NCBI GenBank assembly: GCA_040182905.1
Contig: JARQWU010000032.1
Coordinates: 1-62,323 of the forward strand
From: Barthelona sp. PAP020
Lineage: Eukaryota
Reading direction: 5' to 3'
Length of the DNA stretch: 62,323 bases
In this document: in pieces, positions 1,337 to 54,478 of the stretch
Layout of the letters: each line of letters begins with the position of its first letter
How positions within the stretch are numbered: the stretch's first letter is position 1
Position numbers and translations under genes: made by a program
The notes under the pieces: generated by a model
The model's database searches: none
Seen by the model: only the letters and a program-made list of their open reading frames with translations
Told to the model about the DNA's origin: nothing

Positions 1337-1845
1337 AAAAATGGATTTCACAAATTGTCTTTAATAATTGAAGTTTCATGACTATATGCTTTTTAAAATA
1401 CATTTTCCTTTCAAAATTGGACCAGTAGTGAAAAAACTATGTTTATTTACAAAGAAAGTAAACTCAGAAAACTCATTCTAGCAATTTTCCGTCAAAATCC
1501 CAGAGGGGGAATTGACAGATTGACATGTAATTGGAACGATTAAGCAGGAGAATTTCGGAGAAATTCTTTATTCCTATTCTTTTGTATTTTTGCAAAAGCA
1601 AAATTTTAAAGTTTAAACTTTACCTTAGAAAATCTAAAGTTTTTCAACAGATCAATCGGGCCTCGAAAGCCTTTAACCAAATAAACACTGTTCTTTTTTA
1701 TTCACACATACGCACAGTGCTTCTTGGCTTAGAAATCTTTCAATAGATTAATCATGCCTTACAAATATTTGACTGTATAAACACCATTCTCTTTTGTTCA
1801 CTAATATTACAGCATTTCTTGACTTGGAAATAAATCTAATAGAAA
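1337..1845 (+). repeat. Degenerate dispersed repeat, copy A, with internal 96-bp tandem units
   Basis: Shares collinear blocks with 9180-9440 and 33905-34369. Internal periodicity: tttcaacagatcaatc at 1642 vs tttcaatagattaatc at 1738, and ataaacactgttc at 1681 vs ataaacaccattc at 1777. Confidence 0.7.
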
Positions 1846-21752: not shown

Positions 21753-24515
21753 ATGAAAAATTATTCAGACGAAACTGTAACAAATGCTGTTGGTCGTGTA
21801 TTACCAAAATATATTGATGGTTATGGTGAGGTAAGACCTTTTAAAGGGGCCTTTGCTGTTGAACCTCGCACTGATGTTGTTAGACCCAGTTGCCAAGTTA
21901 GATTTGACAAGCCTGGTGATTGCAAGATTGTTGAAAATTTGGAACAAGCAATGGATCTCTGTGGTTTGGATAATGGAATGACTATAAGTTATCACCATCA
22001 TTTGCGTAATGGAGATGCTGTTTCCAATTTAATTTTTGATATTATTGCCAAGAAAGACGTCAAGGATATTGAATTGGCCCCTTCATCCGTTCATCCCATT
22101 CAAAAGCCTATGATTCCCTTAATTAAAAATGGCAATGTAACAAAGATTCACACTGGAACAAATGGACCTGTTGGTAAATACTGTTCTGAGGGTAACTTAA
22201 AGGATGTTGTCATTGTGAGATCTCACGGAGGCCGTGTTAGAGCCATTCAAGACGGTGATATTAATATTGATATTGCTGTTATTGCTGCTTCTGCTTGTGA
22301 TCCCTGTGGTAATTGTACTGGTATCATTGGAAAGTCGGCTTGTGGTCCTCTTGCTTATGCTGAAGCTGATTCACGTTGGGCTAAAAAGGTTATTGTTGTT
22401 ACTGACAATTTGGTTCCATTCCCATGTACACCTCTTTCAATTAGCGGAACCAATGTTGATTACATTGTTGTTGTTGATTCCATTGGTGATCCTAAAAAAA
22501 TTGCCTCATCTACTGTTGTTCTTGCCAAGTCTGAACCTGGTCTAAGTCTTGCAAAGACTGCTGCTAAAGTTATTGCACATTCTGGTGTTATGGTTGATGG
22601 TTTTTCATTCCAAGCTGGTGCTGGTGGTGCTTCTTTGACTTCAGTCTTTTACCTCGGAGAAGAAATGAGAAAAGCTGGTGTTACAGCTGGATGGGCAAAT
22701 GGTGGTACTACAAAGGTTATTGTTGATTTGTTTAAAGAAGGATTGGTCGATAAGTTGACTACTTGTCAAGCTTTTGATATTCCTTCGATCGCTTCCATGT
22801 ATGATGATATTCAACATCATGTTGAAAGTAGCATTGATCAATATGCTAATCCTTATAATGGACATTGTGTTGTTCATAACCTTGATTGTGTTGTACTTGG
22901 AGGTACTGAAGTTGATGTTGACTTTAATGTTAATGTCAATACTCACTCAGATGGATATCTTCTTCATAATACCGGTGGACATCAAGATACTGCTGCTGGC
23001 GCCAAATTAACAATCATTACTGCTCCTGTCGCTCGTGGTAATAACCCCATTATTGTTCCTCGTGTTACTTCCGTCACCACCCCTGGTGAATGTGTTGATG
23101 TTGTTGTTACTGATGCTGGTATTGCCATTAATCCCAATAGAAAAGATCTTATTGAAGCTCTTTCTAATTCTCCTCTTGCCGACCAAATTAAGGATATTCA
23201 TGCTCTCCATGAAGAAGGTTGTCGTCGTGCTGGACGTGTTCCTTCAGCTCCTGAAACTTTAGATCACATTATTGGTGTTATTGAATGGCGTGATGGTACT
23301 GTTCTTGATGTTGTTCGTCAAGTCGCCAATCCCATTCCTGATGGAATCAAACTTAAATCCGATTGTCTTGTTGAAGTTGAGGAAGCGGATAAGAACAGTG
23401 TTGATGTTATTTTATATGATACTGCTCCTGTTGTTCCTGTTGATGAAATGAAAGCACTTGCAATGGAAATGCTTGAATTTTATGGTGCCAAGAATCTTCA
23501 TGTCATGATTAAGGATAATGTTTCAGAACGTTGGACTCTTCAATCTCGTCTTGAATATGCAATCAAAACTGCTGTTGGTTCTGACAAATGTTATTTAGCC
23601 CCTCTCTGTGAAGATGCTGAAAATCGTGTTCATAGACCCAAAGAAGCTCTTCGTCGTTCTATGTTGTATATTCCTGGCAGTTCTGCTTATATGATGGCCA
23701 AGGCTGATGGTGGTGCTGATTGTGTCATTTACGACATGGAAGATGCTGTTGGTTTGCCACAAAAACCTGAATGTCGTGTTCTTGTTCGTAATGCCCTTCG
23801 TGCTGTTCCATTTGGAAAAACTGAAAGACATATTCGTATTAATCAACATCAACTTGGTGTCGATGACATCCTTGATGTCGTTAAAAATGCCCCTCTTGAT
23901 GTTGTTTGGATTCCAAAGGTTGAAGATCCCATTGAATTTAAGAAGCAAGTTGAACTTATTAAATCTGTTGCTTTTGATCAAGATCATCCCCCTTATGTTG
24001 TTCCTCTCATCGAATCTGCCCTTGGTGTTGAACGTACCTTCGAAATTGCTACCGTTGATCAAGAATCTGTGATCGGTTTGTCCATGGGTTTGGAAGATTA
24101 TACCAAGGATATTGGCGCTGTTCGTACCAAGTCTGATCATGAATCTGAATGGGCTCAACAGCGTGTCAACAATTGTGCTGCTGCTTTCCAACTTCAGTCT
24201 TACGATTCTGTTTTCTCTGATTTCAATGATAATGAAGGTCTTATTGCTTCAGTTAAGCGTTGTAAAGGTCTTGGTTTTGTTGGAAAGAGATTAATTCATC
24301 CTAATCAAGTTAAGCCTTGTAATGCTGCTTTCTTACCTGAAAAGTCTGAATTGGATTATGCTCTCAAAGTTTCTGCTGCCTTCAAGGGTGCATCTGGAAA
24401 TGCTGTTGCCTTAGGAAAGAAGATGATTGATCGTCCAGTTTATCAAAGAGCTCTTCATGTTATCAAGTTGGCTCTTCAAGGAGGAATGATTGAAGGTAGT
24501 ATGGAAGATTATTAA
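21753..24515 (+). CDS. Trifunctional citrate lyase fusion: CitF (alpha, CoA/ACP-transferase) - CitD-like (gamma, acyl carrier) - CitE (beta, citryl-CoA lyase)
   Basis: CitF motifs NAVGR, GMTISYHHHLRNGD, RSHGGR, FQAGAGG, GGHQDTAAGA and WRDGTVLDVV. An ~85-aa CitD-like segment GIKLKSDCLVEV...MIKDNVSERWTLQSRLE. CitE motifs RRSMLYIPG, DMEDAV, IRIN, IPKVE, IES, GLEDY and IHPNQV. One uninterrupted ORF; the first ATG is at 21753. Confidence 0.9.
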   Translation: MKNYSDETVTNAVGRVLPKYIDGYGEVRPFKGAFAVEPRTDVVRPSCQVRFDKPGDCKIVENLEQAMDLCGLDNGMTISYHHHLRNGDAVSNLIFDIIAKKDVKDIELAPSSVHPIQKPMIPLIKNGNVTKIHTGTNGPVGKYCSEGNLKDVVIVRSHGGRVRAIQDGDINIDIAVIAASACDPCGNCTGIIGKSACGPLAYAEADSRWAKKVIVVTDNLVPFPCTPLSISGTNVDYIVVVDSIGDPKKIASSTVVLAKSEPGLSLAKTAAKVIAHSGVMVDGFSFQAGAGGASLTSVFYLGEEMRKAGVTAGWANGGTTKVIVDLFKEGLVDKLTTCQAFDIPSIASMYDDIQHHVESSIDQYANPYNGHCVVHNLDCVVLGGTEVDVDFNVNVNTHSDGYLLHNTGGHQDTAAGAKLTIITAPVARGNNPIIVPRVTSVTTPGECVDVVVTDAGIAINPNRKDLIEALSNSPLADQIKDIHALHEEGCRRAGRVPSAPETLDHIIGVIEWRDGTVLDVVRQVANPIPDGIKLKSDCLVEVEEADKNSVDVILYDTAPVVPVDEMKALAMEMLEFYGAKNLHVMIKDNVSERWTLQSRLEYAIKTAVGSDKCYLAPLCEDAENRVHRPKEALRRSMLYIPGSSAYMMAKADGGADCVIYDMEDAVGLPQKPECRVLVRNALRAVPFGKTERHIRINQHQLGVDDILDVVKNAPLDVVWIPKVEDPIEFKKQVELIKSVAFDQDHPPYVVPLIESALGVERTFEIATVDQESVIGLSMGLEDYTKDIGAVRTKSDHESEWAQQRVNNCAAAFQLQSYDSVFSDFNDNEGLIASVKRCKGLGFVGKRLIHPNQVKPCNAAFLPEKSELDYALKVSAAFKGASGNAVALGKKMIDRPVYQRALHVIKLALQGGMIEGSMEDY

Positions 24516-30420: not shown

Positions 30421-31389
30421 TCAAACCCAATTGTAGGATTCATTTTTGGAAAAACAAACATTTTCAAACAATTCTATGGGTTGTTTCTTTTTAAACACTT
30501 CTGTATCTTCAGCATAATGGACAAATATGCTACCAGCGAATGGAATAGAGTTGATAGGTATTGATTCATAATAGCTTTGCTTTCTAGGAACTATTAATAG
30601 AAACTCTTTGGTGAAGATAACATTATATGATGGTATTTTCTCAACATTCTCTAAAGAATAAATATCAATCAAAGGATTATTGATATCTTCGTAAATAACA
30701 TCTAAAAATGGCTTGTAATAATCTCTAAATGGTAAATCTAACTGTTTCATAGCTTCTAAATACAATTCAAAAATTTCTTCAAAATTTAATGATGATATTG
30801 AAACACATTTGTGTTTAAAATTAAAAATAGAAATTTCAAAAACCCTTTCTTCTTGAAATGATGTGCGAGCAATTAAATCTAAAGGCAATTCTGGTAACAT
30901 GTCTCCAAAAGGTAATGGTAAAACTTGCATGTGTCTGTGTGGTTGTGAAGCTCCAGAATTTCTTCCAATATTTATAAAAGTGAAACAATTATTTCTTTTT
31001 GTGACCTCAAACATTAAATATAATTCTTTATAATCTAAGGGTAAGAATTGGGGTATAAATTTATGAGTCACCATTAAACCATGTCCTTCAACCGCTGGAT
31101 ATTTATTCAATGTCAAATAATAATCCTCGTTTAATGTTTCAAGATACAATTCAGTATGACTATCAGTGAATGGATCTTGAATTTTTTGATGCATCCATTT
31201 TAATTCATTCTCTTTTGAGTATAAACCAGGAACAGCAACTCTTAAACTCAAATAGACTTCACTTTCTTCACACCATTTTAAAACAGACACATCACTTCGA
31301 AGTGGAATAAGTTGTGCTTTTTCTAAAGCTTGAATTGACTTTTGCTTTAAAGCCATAATAATATTATTCAGATTCATTAGTATTGTCAT
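30421..31389 (-). CDS. Ap4A phosphorylase / ATP adenylyltransferase (Apa1/Apa2 family)
   Basis: DPF, LNKYPAVEGHGLMVT..F.PQ..PL, SGASQPHRHMQ (HxHxQ) and SYNVIFT....IVPR...INS..FAG motifs. Confidence 0.88.
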   Translation of the reverse strand: MTILMNLNNIIMALKQKSIQALEKAQLIPLRSDVSVLKWCEESEVYLSLRVAVPGLYSKENELKWMHQKIQDPFTDSHTELYLETLNEDYYLTLNKYPAVEGHGLMVTHKFIPQFLPLDYKELYLMFEVTKRNNCFTFINIGRNSGASQPHRHMQVLPLPFGDMLPELPLDLIARTSFQEERVFEISIFNFKHKCVSISSLNFEEIFELYLEAMKQLDLPFRDYYKPFLDVIYEDINNPLIDIYSLENVEKIPSYNVIFTKEFLLIVPRKQSYYESIPINSIPFAGSIFVHYAEDTEVFKKKQPIELFENVCFSKNESYNWV

Positions 31390-49928: not shown

Positions 49929-50261
49929 ATTGAAATAAACTTGAAAAAAAAAAGATTGAGAGTGATTTAATGCCCATTAAAAAAAAAAACACCTCTCCTC
50001 AATTTCACTCAGTAACTTTAACGTGTGAATGCATCTCACTGTTGCTTTTGTTTCTGCAAGAGGAGACAAATGATGAATTTATTTTTAACCTCAATGTGAA
50101 TTCTTCAAATTAACATGCCAACAATAACTTTCTTTTCAATAAAAGATCTGAAGGAAAAATTCTGGGAAGGATATCAATCCAAAGTTTTTAGATTTCCAAA
50201 CAAAAATGGAATGTGAAAAGAGACAAAAAAAAAAAAGGTGATCAGATGTATTTATTGTGTT

Positions 50262-50618
50262 TATATGCTTTTTTAATACATAACAGATCTTTAAAAATGG
50301 TGAATGAATCTTTGCTGAAATAAACTGAATTATTTGAGGAATTTTCTGGAACAACCATTTATTCTGAGCAAAGTGAATTTAAAGATATTTTTAATATCAT
50401 TTCTTTGATACTATCAGGCTATTTGGTATCACAACTTGATTACCCAAATAAATTTTTAATTTGACAAAATAATATCAAAGTCTTGTCACAGCATTTGAAA
50501 TCTTTTTCATAGACATAAAAATAACAAAAAGAAGATTTGATATGAACATTCATCACATTATCGATACAGAAATTGATGTGAACTTTCATTAAACATTGTC
50601 CTTCAAGGTCCAATTGTG
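50262..50618 (+). repeat. Degenerate dispersed repeat, fragments F
   Basis: tatatgcttttttaatacat (50262) and acattgtccttcaaggtccaattgtg (50593-50618) match copy A tatatgctttttaaaatacattttcctttcaaaattggaccagtagtg. Confidence 0.4.
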
Positions 50619-50930
50619 AGCATACATATTTTTCGAATTGTGGGAACCAGCAAAAATTTCAATTTTATTTTTTAAATTCAACAAATGTTGCTCATTTTTT
50701 GTCCAAGAGTACAAATATTTATTTGTACAAAAGAAAACGACATTTTTTTTAACAGTGGTAGTTTCTCCCTGTAAAATTTTTTTTTAAATTTGCCTTAAGA
50801 ACTTCTATTTGCTACTGTATTACATTTTCTGAGCTTTGTTTGGTTATTAATAAAAAGGGAAAAGGGGAAAAGAAATTTGTCTTTTTTGGGATGTTTTACG
50901 AAATCCCTTTTTTTTATTATTATAGTTTTT

Positions 50931-53045
50931 ATGGAAAATCAGCAGCAGAAAAATGTTGTTTTAGACGATATTACTTCACACAGTACAAAAAAAAACTCAA
51001 AAATTGTTTTGGTGGCCTTCTTTTTGATGGCTTGCTTTTCAATGTATGGTGAAATTATGTTATTACCTTCATTGCCTACTATCGTTAGAGATCCTAAATT
51101 TAGTTCTGGTGCAAATTATGTTGCCTGGATATTAAGCATTTATCTTTTAGTTGGTGCTGTTGTAACTCCAATTGCTGGTGCTTTGGGAGATAAATATGGA
51201 AAGAAAAGGATGTTGATGTTGTGCATGTCATTTTTTGCCATTGCTCAATTTGGTTCGGCATTTGCATGGAGCATGCCTTCTTTAATTTTTTTCAGAGGTA
51301 TTCAAGGCCTTGGTTTAGGACAATTTCCTTTGGCAATGGGTATTATTCGAGATACATTTCCCTCTGACATCATTCCAATTGCTTTGGGAATTGTAAGCAG
51401 TTCTTTTTCAATTGGTGTTACTATTGGTTTCCTTGGAGGCGGTTGGGTCTCTGAAAACTTTGATTGGCAGATTAATTTCTTCTTTTCTGGTTTTGGTCTT
51501 CTTTTCTTGTTAGTGTTCATTTATTTTTATGTTGATGCACCTTTTGTACCAAATAATATGAAATTGGATGTATTTGGATGTTTCATCATAGGTTTTAGTG
51601 TGTTGTCATTAATGTTTGGACTTACTGAAGCTAAAACAAAGGAATTTACTGAATTATCAGTTTGGGGATGTATCTTATTGGCAATTATTATATTTTTTTG
51701 GTTTGTTGTGCATTCATTAAGAGTAGAAAATCCATTAATTCCTAAGAAGCTTATTGAAATTCCTGAAGTTATTATTGTTACCGTTTCTGCTTTTGTTATT
51801 GGTTTTTGTATGTTTTTAGTATACCAAACAGTGCCATTCTTTATTTCTTTACCTATCAATTCATATTATGTTCCTGGTGTTGGTAACGTAACTATTGATC
51901 CTCCTTTGGGTTATCATGGAGTTACTTCTACCCTTACATCAGGTCTTTGGATGAGTGCAGGTGCATTATCTCAACTCCCAATGGCGGCTTTTGCTGGGAA
52001 ATATGCAAGAAAGTTTGGACCCATGAGAATGATGTCTTTCGGTTTTATTGGAAGCGCACTTGTCACATTCCTTATGTTTTATTGGAATAGAACTACTGTT
52101 TCAATAATTGTCACTCAAATTCTCTTTGGTGCAACAATTGCTCCTATTCAAGTGTTGTTGATGACATGTTTAGCTGATTATGCACCTCAAGAAATTTTTG
52201 GTACTGCTACTGGTTTTAATTCTTTGTTGAGAAGTATTGGTTCAACGTTGGGTCCTGTTGTTTCTGAATTGATTACTTCCAAATATTTGAGAGTTTTCAA
52301 TACTCCTGCTGGAACATTTTTTATGAATGAACCTGAGGGATACACATATTGTTGGTTATTAGCTGGTATTGTTAGTTTTATTTCTGGAACTATTCTGTTT
52401 ATTATCAGAAACAAAGCCGGAACATCATCTATCTCTTCTGAAAATGAAGAAGATCCATCAACTGTTGATAGAGAGTTGGCTGAATCAAAAACACCTGTAA
52501 ATTTGGAACTTTGTGAGAACGAAACTTCAAAATTGGAATTTGAAATTTCAAATCTGGTGGAAGAAAGTCAACATACTCAAATTAGTTCATTATTGCAAAA
52601 AGCCTTTGAAAAACATGAAGGAAACTTATGTGAAAGTGAAATTGTTTGTGAATTGAGAAAGAAAGATGCAATTGTGTTTGAACGTATTGTTATTGTTGAT
52701 GATATTATTGTTGGTTATGGATGTGTTGTTAAAGTTACCGTTGATTCTGAGACTGACAAAGTTTATGCTTTGGGACCATTGGCTATTTTGCCAAATTATC
52801 AAAGATTGGGTTTGGGAACAAAGATTGTTGAATCTTTGTTGACTTCTTTGAAAGAAATTGAGGCAAATGGTTGTGTTGTATTGGGTGAGTTTGATTTTTA
52901 CAATAGATTTGGTTTTGAAAGAGATGAAGAAGTAACTTCAGCTTTTTCTCAAGATCATTTTTTGACAGTCAAATTTGGAAATGAAGATTTTAAAGGTCTT
53001 GTTGAATATGATGAGCTTTTTTACAAAAGTGAAATTGATTCTTGA
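50931..53045 (+). CDS. MFS drug:H+ antiporter (14-TM, DHA2/EmrB-QacA-like) fused to a C-terminal YhbS-like GNAT acetyltransferase
   Basis: MFS motif A (GALGDKYGKKRML), RGIQGLG, LGGGWVSENFDWQ, DVFG and ENPLIP. The C-terminal ~165 aa contains ALGPLAILPNYQRLGLGTKIV (acetyl-CoA motif A) and GCVVLGEFDFYNRFGF. The first ATG is at 50931. Confidence 0.85.
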   Translation: MENQQQKNVVLDDITSHSTKKNSKIVLVAFFLMACFSMYGEIMLLPSLPTIVRDPKFSSGANYVAWILSIYLLVGAVVTPIAGALGDKYGKKRMLMLCMSFFAIAQFGSAFAWSMPSLIFFRGIQGLGLGQFPLAMGIIRDTFPSDIIPIALGIVSSSFSIGVTIGFLGGGWVSENFDWQINFFFSGFGLLFLLVFIYFYVDAPFVPNNMKLDVFGCFIIGFSVLSLMFGLTEAKTKEFTELSVWGCILLAIIIFFWFVVHSLRVENPLIPKKLIEIPEVIIVTVSAFVIGFCMFLVYQTVPFFISLPINSYYVPGVGNVTIDPPLGYHGVTSTLTSGLWMSAGALSQLPMAAFAGKYARKFGPMRMMSFGFIGSALVTFLMFYWNRTTVSIIVTQILFGATIAPIQVLLMTCLADYAPQEIFGTATGFNSLLRSIGSTLGPVVSELITSKYLRVFNTPAGTFFMNEPEGYTYCWLLAGIVSFISGTILFIIRNKAGTSSISSENEEDPSTVDRELAESKTPVNLELCENETSKLEFEISNLVEESQHTQISSLLQKAFEKHEGNLCESEIVCELRKKDAIVFERIVIVDDIIVGYGCVVKVTVDSETDKVYALGPLAILPNYQRLGLGTKIVESLLTSLKEIEANGCVVLGEFDFYNRFGFERDEEVTSAFSQDHFLTVKFGNEDFKGLVEYDELFYKSEIDS

Positions 53046-53230: not shown

Positions 53231-54478
53231 TTATTCTGAAATCCCAGGTGAATTTTTGGAATTTGAATCCATCAATTGCTTTGCAGTGTTTAAAGGTGTT
53301 GTCAAAACTTGATGATGCGTGTAGTCTTCAGAATTCATTGTTTGATTCTTTTGTTTTGTTGGACTATTAACTGATGGCATATTTTCAACACTTTTTTCCA
53401 ATTTAGCGAAAGGGGAAACAATACTTTCGTTGTGTGCCTCACCCAATTTCCACAATTTTTTTTCAATCATTTTTAAAAAAGTCTGTTGCTGTCCAATAAT
53501 GGATCCAGGTCTCAAAACACGCAAAAAACCAATGACTTCTTTTGCAGTAAATCGATAGTGTTTCATGAGATAACAACCAATTAAAGTGCCTGTTCTTCCT
53601 AGACCTGCACGGCAATGTACAGCAACAGCGTCAGTGGAATTTTCAAGTATATGAAAGAAATCATTCATTAGATTCCAACTCGGCAATCCACCATCTGGAA
53701 AAAAAAGATCATGATGATTGAATCCCATTGAAACAAAACTGTGTGAATTGTAACATGGTTTGTTTAAACGAACGACAGTGTTAATGTTGTACTTTCTAAA
53801 ATAGGGAATATAATCTTCAGGCGATAAAACAAAGAAATATTGTGCTGCAGAAGGATGAGTCTTAGCAACAGGTCCAGCAAATGCCAGAATTTTTTTGGGA
53901 ATGATCCAATGCATGTCTCCTTCAGTGACCTGACTATAAAATTCATATTCTTTTAAATTAAATTTATGAAGATCAAACAGTTTACAATCAATGGCTCTTT
54001 TAATTCCTGCCATAATATCACGAATTGACAAATCAAAAATTGATCGTCCACTTGCTGCATCTCTGTATGAAAGAAAACTTGGCTGTATTCTTTGTAATAA
54101 TGACCAAGTAAAATCGACAGACATTTTTAAAATTGTGACACAATATATTCCAACCAAACATGATGCATTGGTGCGATAATATGCATCATTTGAACAATGA
54201 TAAACAATTTTTACATCAGGTGTTGAATTGTTCAACATTCTGTTCATTTTTGCTGCAAATCTATAAACACAACCCATGTTCAATGGACCAAAATCAGCTA
54301 AAAATGGTTCATATCTCAATTCATTTTCGGTTGAAAAATATTGAACAGTTGAAGTTGATCTTAGTATATAATTGGAGTTTTCTAAAGGTAAAAAGAAAAA
54401 GCGATCTAAAACATTAGTAATTCATAATATTCAATAAATTATACTAGGTATAATAGTTATTGCTTCACTTGGAATCAT
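53231..54478 (-). CDS. CDC14: Cdc14 dual-specificity phosphatase (2 exons: 54478-54445 and 54405-53231)
   Basis: ADFGPLN, YRDA, GDMHWIIP, LFFPDGG and the catalytic VHCRAGLGRTG. Splicing out 54444-54406 restores the conserved N-terminus MIPSEAITIIPNRFFF...YFSTENELRYEPF in frame (1209 nt). Confidence 0.92.
54406..54444 (-). other. 39-nt spliceosomal intron
   Basis: Minus-strand sequence GTATAATTTATTGAATATTATGAATTACTAATGTTTTAG has GT...AG ends, a branch-point-like ACTAAT and in-frame stops. Confidence 0.85.

What the first reader, a model, noticed from the sequence alone, without database searches (positions are those of the whole stretch)
50931..53045. MFS efflux pump fused to a YhbS-type acetyltransferase: a possible modify-and-export detoxification module
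Seen: a 14-TM DHA2-like MFS domain runs in frame, through an acidic linker (about 52420-52540), into a complete GNAT domain with an intact QRLGLG acetyl-CoA motif and the YhbS-family VLG...Y.RFGF signature. Established: both families are typically prokaryotic and usually separate proteins, and GNATs and DHA2 pumps each mediate xenobiotic resistance. Inference: this is a second laterally derived fusion, coupling acetylation of a small molecule to its transport.
Basis: partly seen in the sequence, partly recalled or inferred. Interest (0 to 1): 0.7.

Follow-up and report, generated by a model that had tools for sequence, protein, structure and literature searches.

The report
Archaeal-type pump fused to acetyltransferase
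In this single-celled eukaryote one uninterrupted reading frame joins a membrane transporter related to those of methane-making archaea to a bacterial-type acetyl-adding enzyme; the join was likely made in the eukaryote, and the protein would likely tag and expel a small molecule that is still unknown.

Summary
Window 50931-53045 is one 704-codon frame: an MFS transporter with 14 predicted helices that folds like EfpA/QacA, a 40-residue acidic linker, and a full-length YhbS-type GNAT that keeps its acetyl-CoA motif and the tyrosine YhbS needs for activity. The linker scores as coding, no Met follows residue 465, and 0 of 1528 single-base edits give two clean genes. No RNA evidence was obtained.

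The halves have different histories. The pump groups (100/99) with four stand-alone Dysnectes proteins inside a clade of Methanomassiliicoccales-type transporters. The GNAT was not found in 121 genomes of that order. So the fusion was likely built in the eukaryote, not transferred whole.

This pairing was not found elsewhere: 1 of 80 long YhbS-type proteins carries an MFS, the query itself, and 0 of 169 MFS relatives carry the GNAT. Coupled acetylate-and-export is the likeliest single mechanism (0.35) but is untested. It is a singleton, YhbS has no known small-molecule substrate, and this GNAT fuses to many unrelated domains. Verdict: new variant of known MFS-enzyme fusions, moderate interest.

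The parts
50931..53045 (+). Whole open reading frame, 704 residues (P0001): MFS + linker + GNAT
   Evidence: the identical protein is in the protein collection as a one-member cluster from a eukaryote protein source
50931..52418 (+). MFS transporter, residues 1-496, 14 predicted membrane helices, DHA2-like fold
   Evidence: Pfam MFS_1; AlphaFold helices, pLDDT mostly above 90 in residues 21-490; top Foldseek matches EfpA, QacA, EmrB
51048..51077 (+). End of helix 1 with membrane-embedded Glu41, a candidate proton/cation site
   Evidence: acidic residue in this column in 19 of 22 aligned rows, Gln in the 3 outgroup rows; its role is inferred from recalled QacA/MdfA work
51177..51206 (+). MFS motif A (loop 2-3), intact
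   Evidence: motif definition recalled
51288..51314 (+). Motif B with Arg122 in helix 4, intact
   Evidence: Arg in all 22 aligned rows; motif definition recalled
51387..51443 (+). Motif C (antiporter motif) in helix 5: glycine spacing kept, proline replaced by Phe167
   Evidence: the proline is absent in all 22 aligned rows; motif definition recalled
52419..52538 (+). Acidic linker, residues 497-536, predicted flexible
   Evidence: coding-like codon use, no stop, no Met; pLDDT about 43-60, with no aligned relatives for this part
52539..53030 (+). YhbS-type GNAT acetyltransferase domain, residues 537-700
   Evidence: model pLDDT 91; Foldseek 4ZBG TM 0.82-0.93, rmsd 1.6, and 4RS2 TM 0.83-0.86
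52800..52817 (+). Acetyl-CoA binding motif A (Gln624-Gly629)
52878..52916 (+). YhbS-family motif with Tyr657, equivalent to YhbS Tyr117
   Evidence: alignment; YhbS Y117A loses self-acetylation (PMC10710024 section 7)

Best explanation
One 704-residue reading frame joins an MFS transporter with 14 predicted helices, closest to those of methanogenic archaea, to a YhbS-type acetyltransferase; the join was likely made in this protist's lineage, and the protein likely acetylates an amine-bearing small molecule in the cytosol and would pump it out. Shown: the frame, the two domains, the intact motifs, the tree position of the pump, and that its sister proteins stand alone. Inferred, step by step: (1) an archaeal-type pump gene entered an ancestor shared with Dysnectes; (2) a bacterial-type GNAT gene was later joined to its 3' end; (3) with 14 helices the C-terminus and so the GNAT face the cytosol, where acetyl-CoA is; (4) the acidic GNAT takes a cationic amine such as a polyamine or a toxic metabolite of prey bacteria; (5) the pump, using Glu41 for proton exchange, removes the amine or its acetylated form from the cytosol, as the separate Blt and BltD proteins do in Bacillus subtilis. 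Confidence splits as about 0.9 for a real fused gene, 0.75 for assembly in the eukaryote, and 0.35 for the whole chain.
For: Single frame with a coding-like linker and no Met after residue 465; 0 of 1528 single edits give two clean genes. GNAT keeps 17 of 23 columns conserved in at least 95% of 113 relatives, the same count as active E. coli YhbS, including Tyr657 = Tyr117. GNAT net charge -9.4 per 100 residues, 4th most acidic of 114. Pump folds like the 14-helix exporters EfpA, QacA and EmrB, best NCBIfam match efflux_EmrB, with Glu41, motif A and Arg122 intact. Pump sister to four Dysnectes proteins that end 11-16 residues after helix 14. No GNAT next to the archaeal relatives, 0 of 64 loci, or in 121 genomes of that order (positive control). 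[quoted passage not shown]
Against: The fusion is a singleton, so no conservation argues that the join is selected. The same GNAT type is fused to many unrelated domains (HD hydrolase, methyltransferase, glyoxalase, NUDIX, MerR and others), which weakens any inference from fusion to shared substrate. No small-molecule substrate is known for YhbS, and it binds Hfq without needing catalysis. The GNAT is the most diverged of 114 (24 of 40 columns conserved at 80%, median 38; branch 2.87). YhbS itself is just as acidic (-9.0), so charge says little about the substrate. The antiporter-motif proline is missing and the EmrB score (111 bits) is below the 230 cut-off, so direction of transport is open. 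The GNAT tree does not resolve a donor, and YhbS-type genes do occur in another archaeal phylum, 31 of 151 genomes.
Confidence: 0.35

Rival explanations
1. The fused gene is real but the two halves work independently. The join is a lineage-specific merger of two acquired genes that gives shared expression or a membrane anchor, with no shared substrate.
For: Singleton; YhbS-type domains fuse to many unrelated partners; halves of different origin and never seen adjacent; long flexible linker; this window holds another multi-gene fusion.
Against: Both halves keep their functional residues, and an MFS plus amine acetyltransferase pair has a working precedent in Blt/BltD.
Confidence: 0.3
2. Import and trap: the transporter brings an amine nutrient into the cytosol, from outside or from the food vacuole, and the tethered GNAT acetylates it so that it stays or enters metabolism, like LplT fused to its acyltransferase.
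For: Antiporter-motif proline absent family-wide; a weaker NCBIfam match to uridine transporter UriT, E 1.8e-11 (that UriT imports is recalled); LplT fusion as the described MFS-enzyme precedent (PMC8154325 section 28).
Against: Best sequence and fold matches are exporters; Glu41 and Arg122 fit the drug:proton type (motif roles recalled).
Confidence: 0.15
3. Regulatory tail: the GNAT acetylates or binds a protein, perhaps the transporter itself, or senses acetyl-CoA, and so gates transport.
For: E. coli YhbS self-acetylates and binds Hfq independent of catalysis; the GNAT has lost several family-wide residues outside the CoA site; an earlier scan note describes an ammonium transporter-GNAT fusion in another protist (e1-7172165, unchecked).
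Against: No partner or acetylated lysine is identified; nothing tested here points to protein substrates over small amines.
Confidence: 0.12
4. Artefact: two neighbouring genes merged by assembly or sequencing errors, or split by splicing in the cell.
For: No transcript was examined; 215 of 1528 single edits give a GNAT start codon overlapping the pump frame; one assembly only.
Against: No in-frame Met after residue 465 and one out-of-frame ATG in the junction; 0 of 1528 single edits give two clean genes; linker more coding-like than all 5554 intergenic windows; no branch-point-plus-AG signal of the kind seen in the neighbouring intron on the + strand of the ORF; the neighbouring Cdc14 frame shows no frameshift.
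Confidence: 0.08

Closest known systems
Bacillus subtilis Blt + BltD (MFS spermidine exporter co-transcribed with a spermidine/spermine acetyltransferase)
   Same: An MFS pump paired with a GNAT acting on one amine class: the proposed working logic (PMC11808394 and PMC11998418 passages).
   Different: Two genes, not one. Blt is a 12-helix pump (recalled). BltD is a different GNAT branch: it is not among the two solved-structure sequence hits of this GNAT, and I made no direct comparison.
LplT fused to acyltransferase/acyl-ACP synthetase, and other bacterial MFS C-terminal fusions
   Same: An MFS with a C-terminal cytosolic acyl-transfer enzyme thought to act on the transported molecule (PMC8154325 section 28).
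   Different: LplT imports lysophospholipid and its enzyme is a PlsC-type acyltransferase; here a DHA2-like pump and a GNAT, in a eukaryote. The survey of bacterial MFS fusions (doi 10.1099/mic.0.000771) was seen only as a reference title and may list MFS-GNAT cases.
E. coli YhbS/HqbA (PDB 4RS2) and Brucella GNAT 4ZBG
   Same: Same fold (TM 0.82-0.93), 26-27% identity, motif A, the Tyr117 equivalent and the C-terminal signature.
   Different: Stand-alone soluble proteins; YhbS binds Hfq and that role is not expected here. The window's copy is tethered to a transporter and is the most diverged of 114 compared.
DHA2 14-helix drug:proton antiporters (EfpA, QacA, EmrB, NorC)
   Same: 14 predicted helices, top fold matches, motifs A and B, acidic residue in helix 1.
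   Different: Only 16-20% identical; below the TIGR00711 cut-off; no motif C proline; belongs to an uncharacterised archaeal-type subfamily.
Stand-alone archaeal-type MFS proteins of Dysnectes brevis, Mastigamoeba, Pelomyxa, Mastigella and Methanomassiliicoccales
   Same: Same subfamily, up to 36% identical; Dysnectes proteins are the sister group.
   Different: None carries a YhbS-type GNAT (0 of 169; 0 of 43 genome matches reach past residue 524).

Membership tests
Major facilitator superfamily | Pfam MFS_1 above cut-off; motif A | tested here: met
   167 bits against 33.4; motif A at residues 83-92
DHA2 drug:H+ antiporter family | 14 transmembrane helices | tested here: met
   14 long helices in the AlphaFold model; top Foldseek hits are 14-helix pumps. 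A prediction, not a measurement.
DHA2 drug:H+ antiporter family | NCBIfam efflux_EmrB (TIGR00711) above curated cut-off | tested here: not met
   111 bits against 230.2
DHA2 drug:H+ antiporter family | Membrane-embedded acidic residue in helix 1 and motif B arginine | tested here: met
   Glu41 and Arg122; motif definitions recalled
DHA2 drug:H+ antiporter family | Motif C with Gly-Pro in helix 5 | tested here: not met
   Gly-Phe; no proline in any of 22 aligned rows; motif definition recalled
DHA2 drug:H+ antiporter family | Drug/proton antiport activity | not testable with these tools
   needs a transport assay; filed as DHA2-like, not as a member
GNAT superfamily | Pfam Acetyltransf_1/_7 above cut-off; acetyl-CoA motif A | tested here: met
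   29.7 against 20.7 and 31.8 against 27 bits; Gln624, Gly627, Gly629 kept
YhbS-type GNAT | Full-length match to a profile of YhbS-type proteins, and closest fold | tested here: met
   112 bits over positions 8-164 of 165 with the query left out; 4ZBG and 4RS2 are the top folds
YhbS-type GNAT | Active-site tyrosine (YhbS Tyr117) | tested here: met
   Tyr657 aligns with Tyr117; Y117A is inactive
YhbS-type GNAT | Acetyltransferase activity | not testable with these tools
   needs a DTNB or mass-spectrometry assay
Modify-and-export module (Blt/BltD type) | Enzyme and pump share one substrate | not testable with these tools
   no substrate is known for either half
Modify-and-export module (Blt/BltD type) | Conserved linkage of the two genes across genomes | tested here: not met
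   0 of 64 loci, 0 of 2012 plasmid records with one place covering 80% of the query, 1 of 80 long GNAT proteins
Operon or fusion transferred as one unit | Both halves found together in one donor group | tested here: not met
   GNAT not found in 121 genomes of the order holding the closest pumps; GNAT donor unresolved

The most novel reading that the evidence does not exclude
An anaerobic protist built its own one-protein acetylate-and-export detoxifier by joining an archaeal pump to a bacterial acetyltransferase that were never partners in prokaryotes; the pump's cargo would be the first small-molecule substrate of the YhbS family.
Probability: 0.3. Interest if true: 0.65.

Novelty: new variant of a known kind. 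Interest (0 to 1): 0.42.

Why it matters
If coupled, it shows a eukaryote making a new pathway from genes of two prokaryotic domains, not just fusing an operon, and it gives a way to find a substrate for the widespread YhbS acetyltransferases, for which only self-acetylation has been shown. Even if uncoupled, the pump marks an archaeal-type transporter family shared by Dysnectes and Archamoebae, which I did not find described (listings; passages). The limit is that it is one gene in one assembly with no functional data.

Tried and rejected
No whole genome is held for the window, so paralogues and a stand-alone copy of either half could not be sought. No sequencing run was listed; this is no evidence either way. 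Word-based protein searches with the single GNAT found only the query or nothing; one search missed known relatives, so I discarded both negatives. Two metagenome scans returned no relative among 85 and 162 candidate stretches; they find close relatives only. The full-length fold modelled the GNAT poorly because its alignment mixed unrelated domains, so it says nothing on domain packing; the GNAT was refolded alone. The GNAT tree (117 rows) puts the query on a 2.87 branch in no starred group: donor unresolved. One origin for all eukaryote pumps was not rejected (p-AU 0.15 and 0.13), so one or two transfers remain open. In one search six neighbouring genes had the wrong strand; one search corrects this and its numbers are the ones used. 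The ESM Atlas gave stand-alone GNAT and MFS clusters only, with no cluster showing both families among the rows shown; it holds only clusters of 50 or more. Rfam found nothing in the window. Paper searches for an MFS-GNAT fusion showed no such report in their listings; subscription papers are not covered. The puromycin pump/acetyltransferase pair is recalled only; the review checked does not mention it. Rejected: bacterial contamination (codon use); a frameshift in the neighbouring Cdc14 gene that I first suspected (it is an in-frame 39-base intron). No complex prediction was run, as no binding is claimed.

Full report
Setting. The window is AT-rich (22-39% GC in 2-kb steps) and gene-dense. 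It encodes a kinesin, a Cdc14-like phosphatase and other eukaryote-type proteins. Most genes are single open frames, but the Cdc14-like gene has a 39-base intron with its branch point close to the 3' AG. It is a eukaryote; an anaerobic protist related to Dysnectes is inferred from the pump tree alone. No genome was held.

Observation. 50931-53045 is one frame of 704 residues. Pfam gives MFS_1 (E 5.8e-49) and GNAT families over residues 543-663. AlphaFold with 65 rows gives 14 long helices in residues 2-496, and the best of at least 500 Foldseek matches are EfpA, QacA, EmrB and NorC. The GNAT folded alone has pLDDT 91 and matches 4ZBG and YhbS 4RS2 first. A profile built without the query covers it almost end to end at 112 bits. 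Tyr657 aligns with YhbS Tyr117, whose loss ends self-acetylation (PMC10710024, section 7 read).

Is the join real? The 40-codon linker has no stop and scores 18.4 bits as coding, above 5554 of 5554 intergenic windows. Only 22 of 16624 intergenic windows are both stop-free and as GC-rich. The last Met is residue 465, so the GNAT has no start of its own. Of 1528 single-base edits over 52380-52570, 539 leave the fusion, 774 leave the GNAT without a start, 215 give overlapping frames and 0 give two clean genes. Codon use matches the 29 neighbours. The identical protein is in the collection from a eukaryote protein source, but that may come from this same assembly and is not independent. No RNA was examined.

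Origin of the pump. A search of 1.84 billion representatives gave 29324 hits at E 0.001; among the best 150, all 149 non-self best stretches lie in the pump. Look-ups of 30 proteins named four Dysnectes brevis, six Mastigamoeba, four Pelomyxa and one Mastigella protein; the others asked about were unnamed or generically named. A genome scan seeded with the top hits gave 64 loci, titled as archaea except two untitled ones, mostly Methanomassiliicoccales (the seed biases this). Trees used 127 of 150 rows (400-999 residues), then 67 chosen rows, then 43 of those 67 for time (LG+G4, no mixture). All join the window to the four Dysnectes proteins. That group sits unresolved at the base of a 100/100 clade with Methanomassiliicoccales and two unnamed proteins; the Archamoebae branch separately within it. 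A single eukaryote clade is not rejected. The outgroup rows were judged bacterial by appearance, not looked up. The Dysnectes proteins end 11-16 residues after helix 14.

Origin of the GNAT. Best matches are bacterial at about 30-34% identity. It was not found within about 4 kb in 64 of 64 archaeal pump loci (some loci are shorter), nor in 121 genomes of that order at E 1e-15, while the same profile finds E. coli YhbS. Against a simple 'bacterial' label: 31 of 151 genomes of another archaeal phylum have the family, and the tree leaves the query unplaced on a very long branch. One gain in this lineage is one step; gain in the ancestor with loss in Dysnectes is two, and is not excluded.

How common is the pairing? 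Of 80 proteins of 311-2000 residues with a YhbS-type domain, only the query has MFS_1 (only 7994 candidates were scored, and the tool calls a blank weak evidence). The others carry HD, methyltransferase, glyoxalase, NUDIX, MerR and many more domains. 0 of 169 pump relatives and cluster members carry the GNAT. 0 of 2012 plasmid records have one place covering 80% of the query. 0 of 43 matches in 301 archaeal genomes reach past residue 524 (three candidates scored per genome). This pump subfamily takes other C-terminal partners now and then. MFS fusions to other GNAT types were not searched.

Mechanism. With 14 helices and a cytosolic N-terminus (general MFS knowledge) the GNAT faces the cytosol. 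The pump keeps Glu41, motif A and Arg122 but lacks the motif C proline, as all 22 aligned rows do, and it is below the EmrB cut-off: DHA2-like, direction unproven. The GNAT keeps 17 of 23 near-invariant columns, as YhbS does, but only 24 of 40 at the 80% level, the lowest of 114; it is acidic, as YhbS is. I favour acetylation of a cationic amine with export (0.35), on the Blt/BltD model (PMC11808394 and PMC11998418, passages). Rivals are an uncoupled fusion (0.30), import and trap (0.15), a regulatory tail (0.12) and artefact (0.08).

Literature seen. PMC10710024: passages and section 7. PMC8154325: passages and section 28, which states that MFS fusions with enzymes are known. PMC11808394, PMC11998418, PMC6804068, PMC8136499, PMC11976288: passages only. 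The survey of bacterial MFS fusions and the original blt paper were not held. Searches listed no MFS-GNAT fusion; two listed no account of this pump family. No supplements were read; lateral-transfer tables in protist genome papers may already list the pump.

Verdict. A real, apparently rare chimeric gene, likely assembled in the eukaryote from parts of different origin. It is a new variant of MFS-enzyme fusions. The detoxification reading is plausible and directly testable but unsupported by any functional or conservation evidence. Interest 0.42.

Noticed in passing
window 21753-24515 (+): One 920-residue frame joins bacterial citrate lyase alpha (CitF, above cut-off), a weak acyl-carrier CitD match and beta (CitE-like) subunits. 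The one paper checked discusses only ATP-citrate lyase.
   Followed up: partly
window 54406-54444 (-): A 39-base intron with in-frame stops in the Cdc14-like gene, with its branch point 13 bases from the 3' end; the gene starts at 54478, not at the TTG listed.
   Followed up: yes
P0002-P0135, L012-L075: An archaeal-type 14-helix MFS family is expanded in Dysnectes (4 proteins seen), Mastigamoeba (7 seen) and Pelomyxa (4 seen), close to Methanomassiliicoccales: one or two transfers into anaerobic protists.
   Followed up: partly
P0005, P0011, P0049, P0062, P0079, P0101: Unnamed or generically named metagenome proteins that group with the Archamoebae pumps and look eukaryotic; their source organisms are unknown.
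   Followed up: no
P0063, P0082, P0112, P0113, P0127, P0166: Other fusions to this pump family: ABM monooxygenase, luciferase-like, carboxypeptidase-regulatory-like repeats, and in Mastigamoeba GH20 or a weak glycosyltransferase match, which may be merged gene models.
   Followed up: no
P0176-P0230: A recurrent HD-family 5'-deoxynucleotidase + YhbS-type GNAT fusion in Acinetobacter, Pseudomonas and Myxococcus, 11 of 46 rows in alignment A5.
   Followed up: no
window 30421-31389 (-): Ap4A phosphorylase / ATP adenylyltransferase gene.
   Followed up: no
window 49929-50930: A 1002-base spacer between the divergent kinesin and pump genes, the second longest in the window (median about 300); no Rfam match.
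   Followed up: no
window 1775-1812 (+): A second stretch with the same intron-like ends as the Cdc14 intron, in a spacer with no listed ORF; may be chance or a small gene.
   Followed up: no
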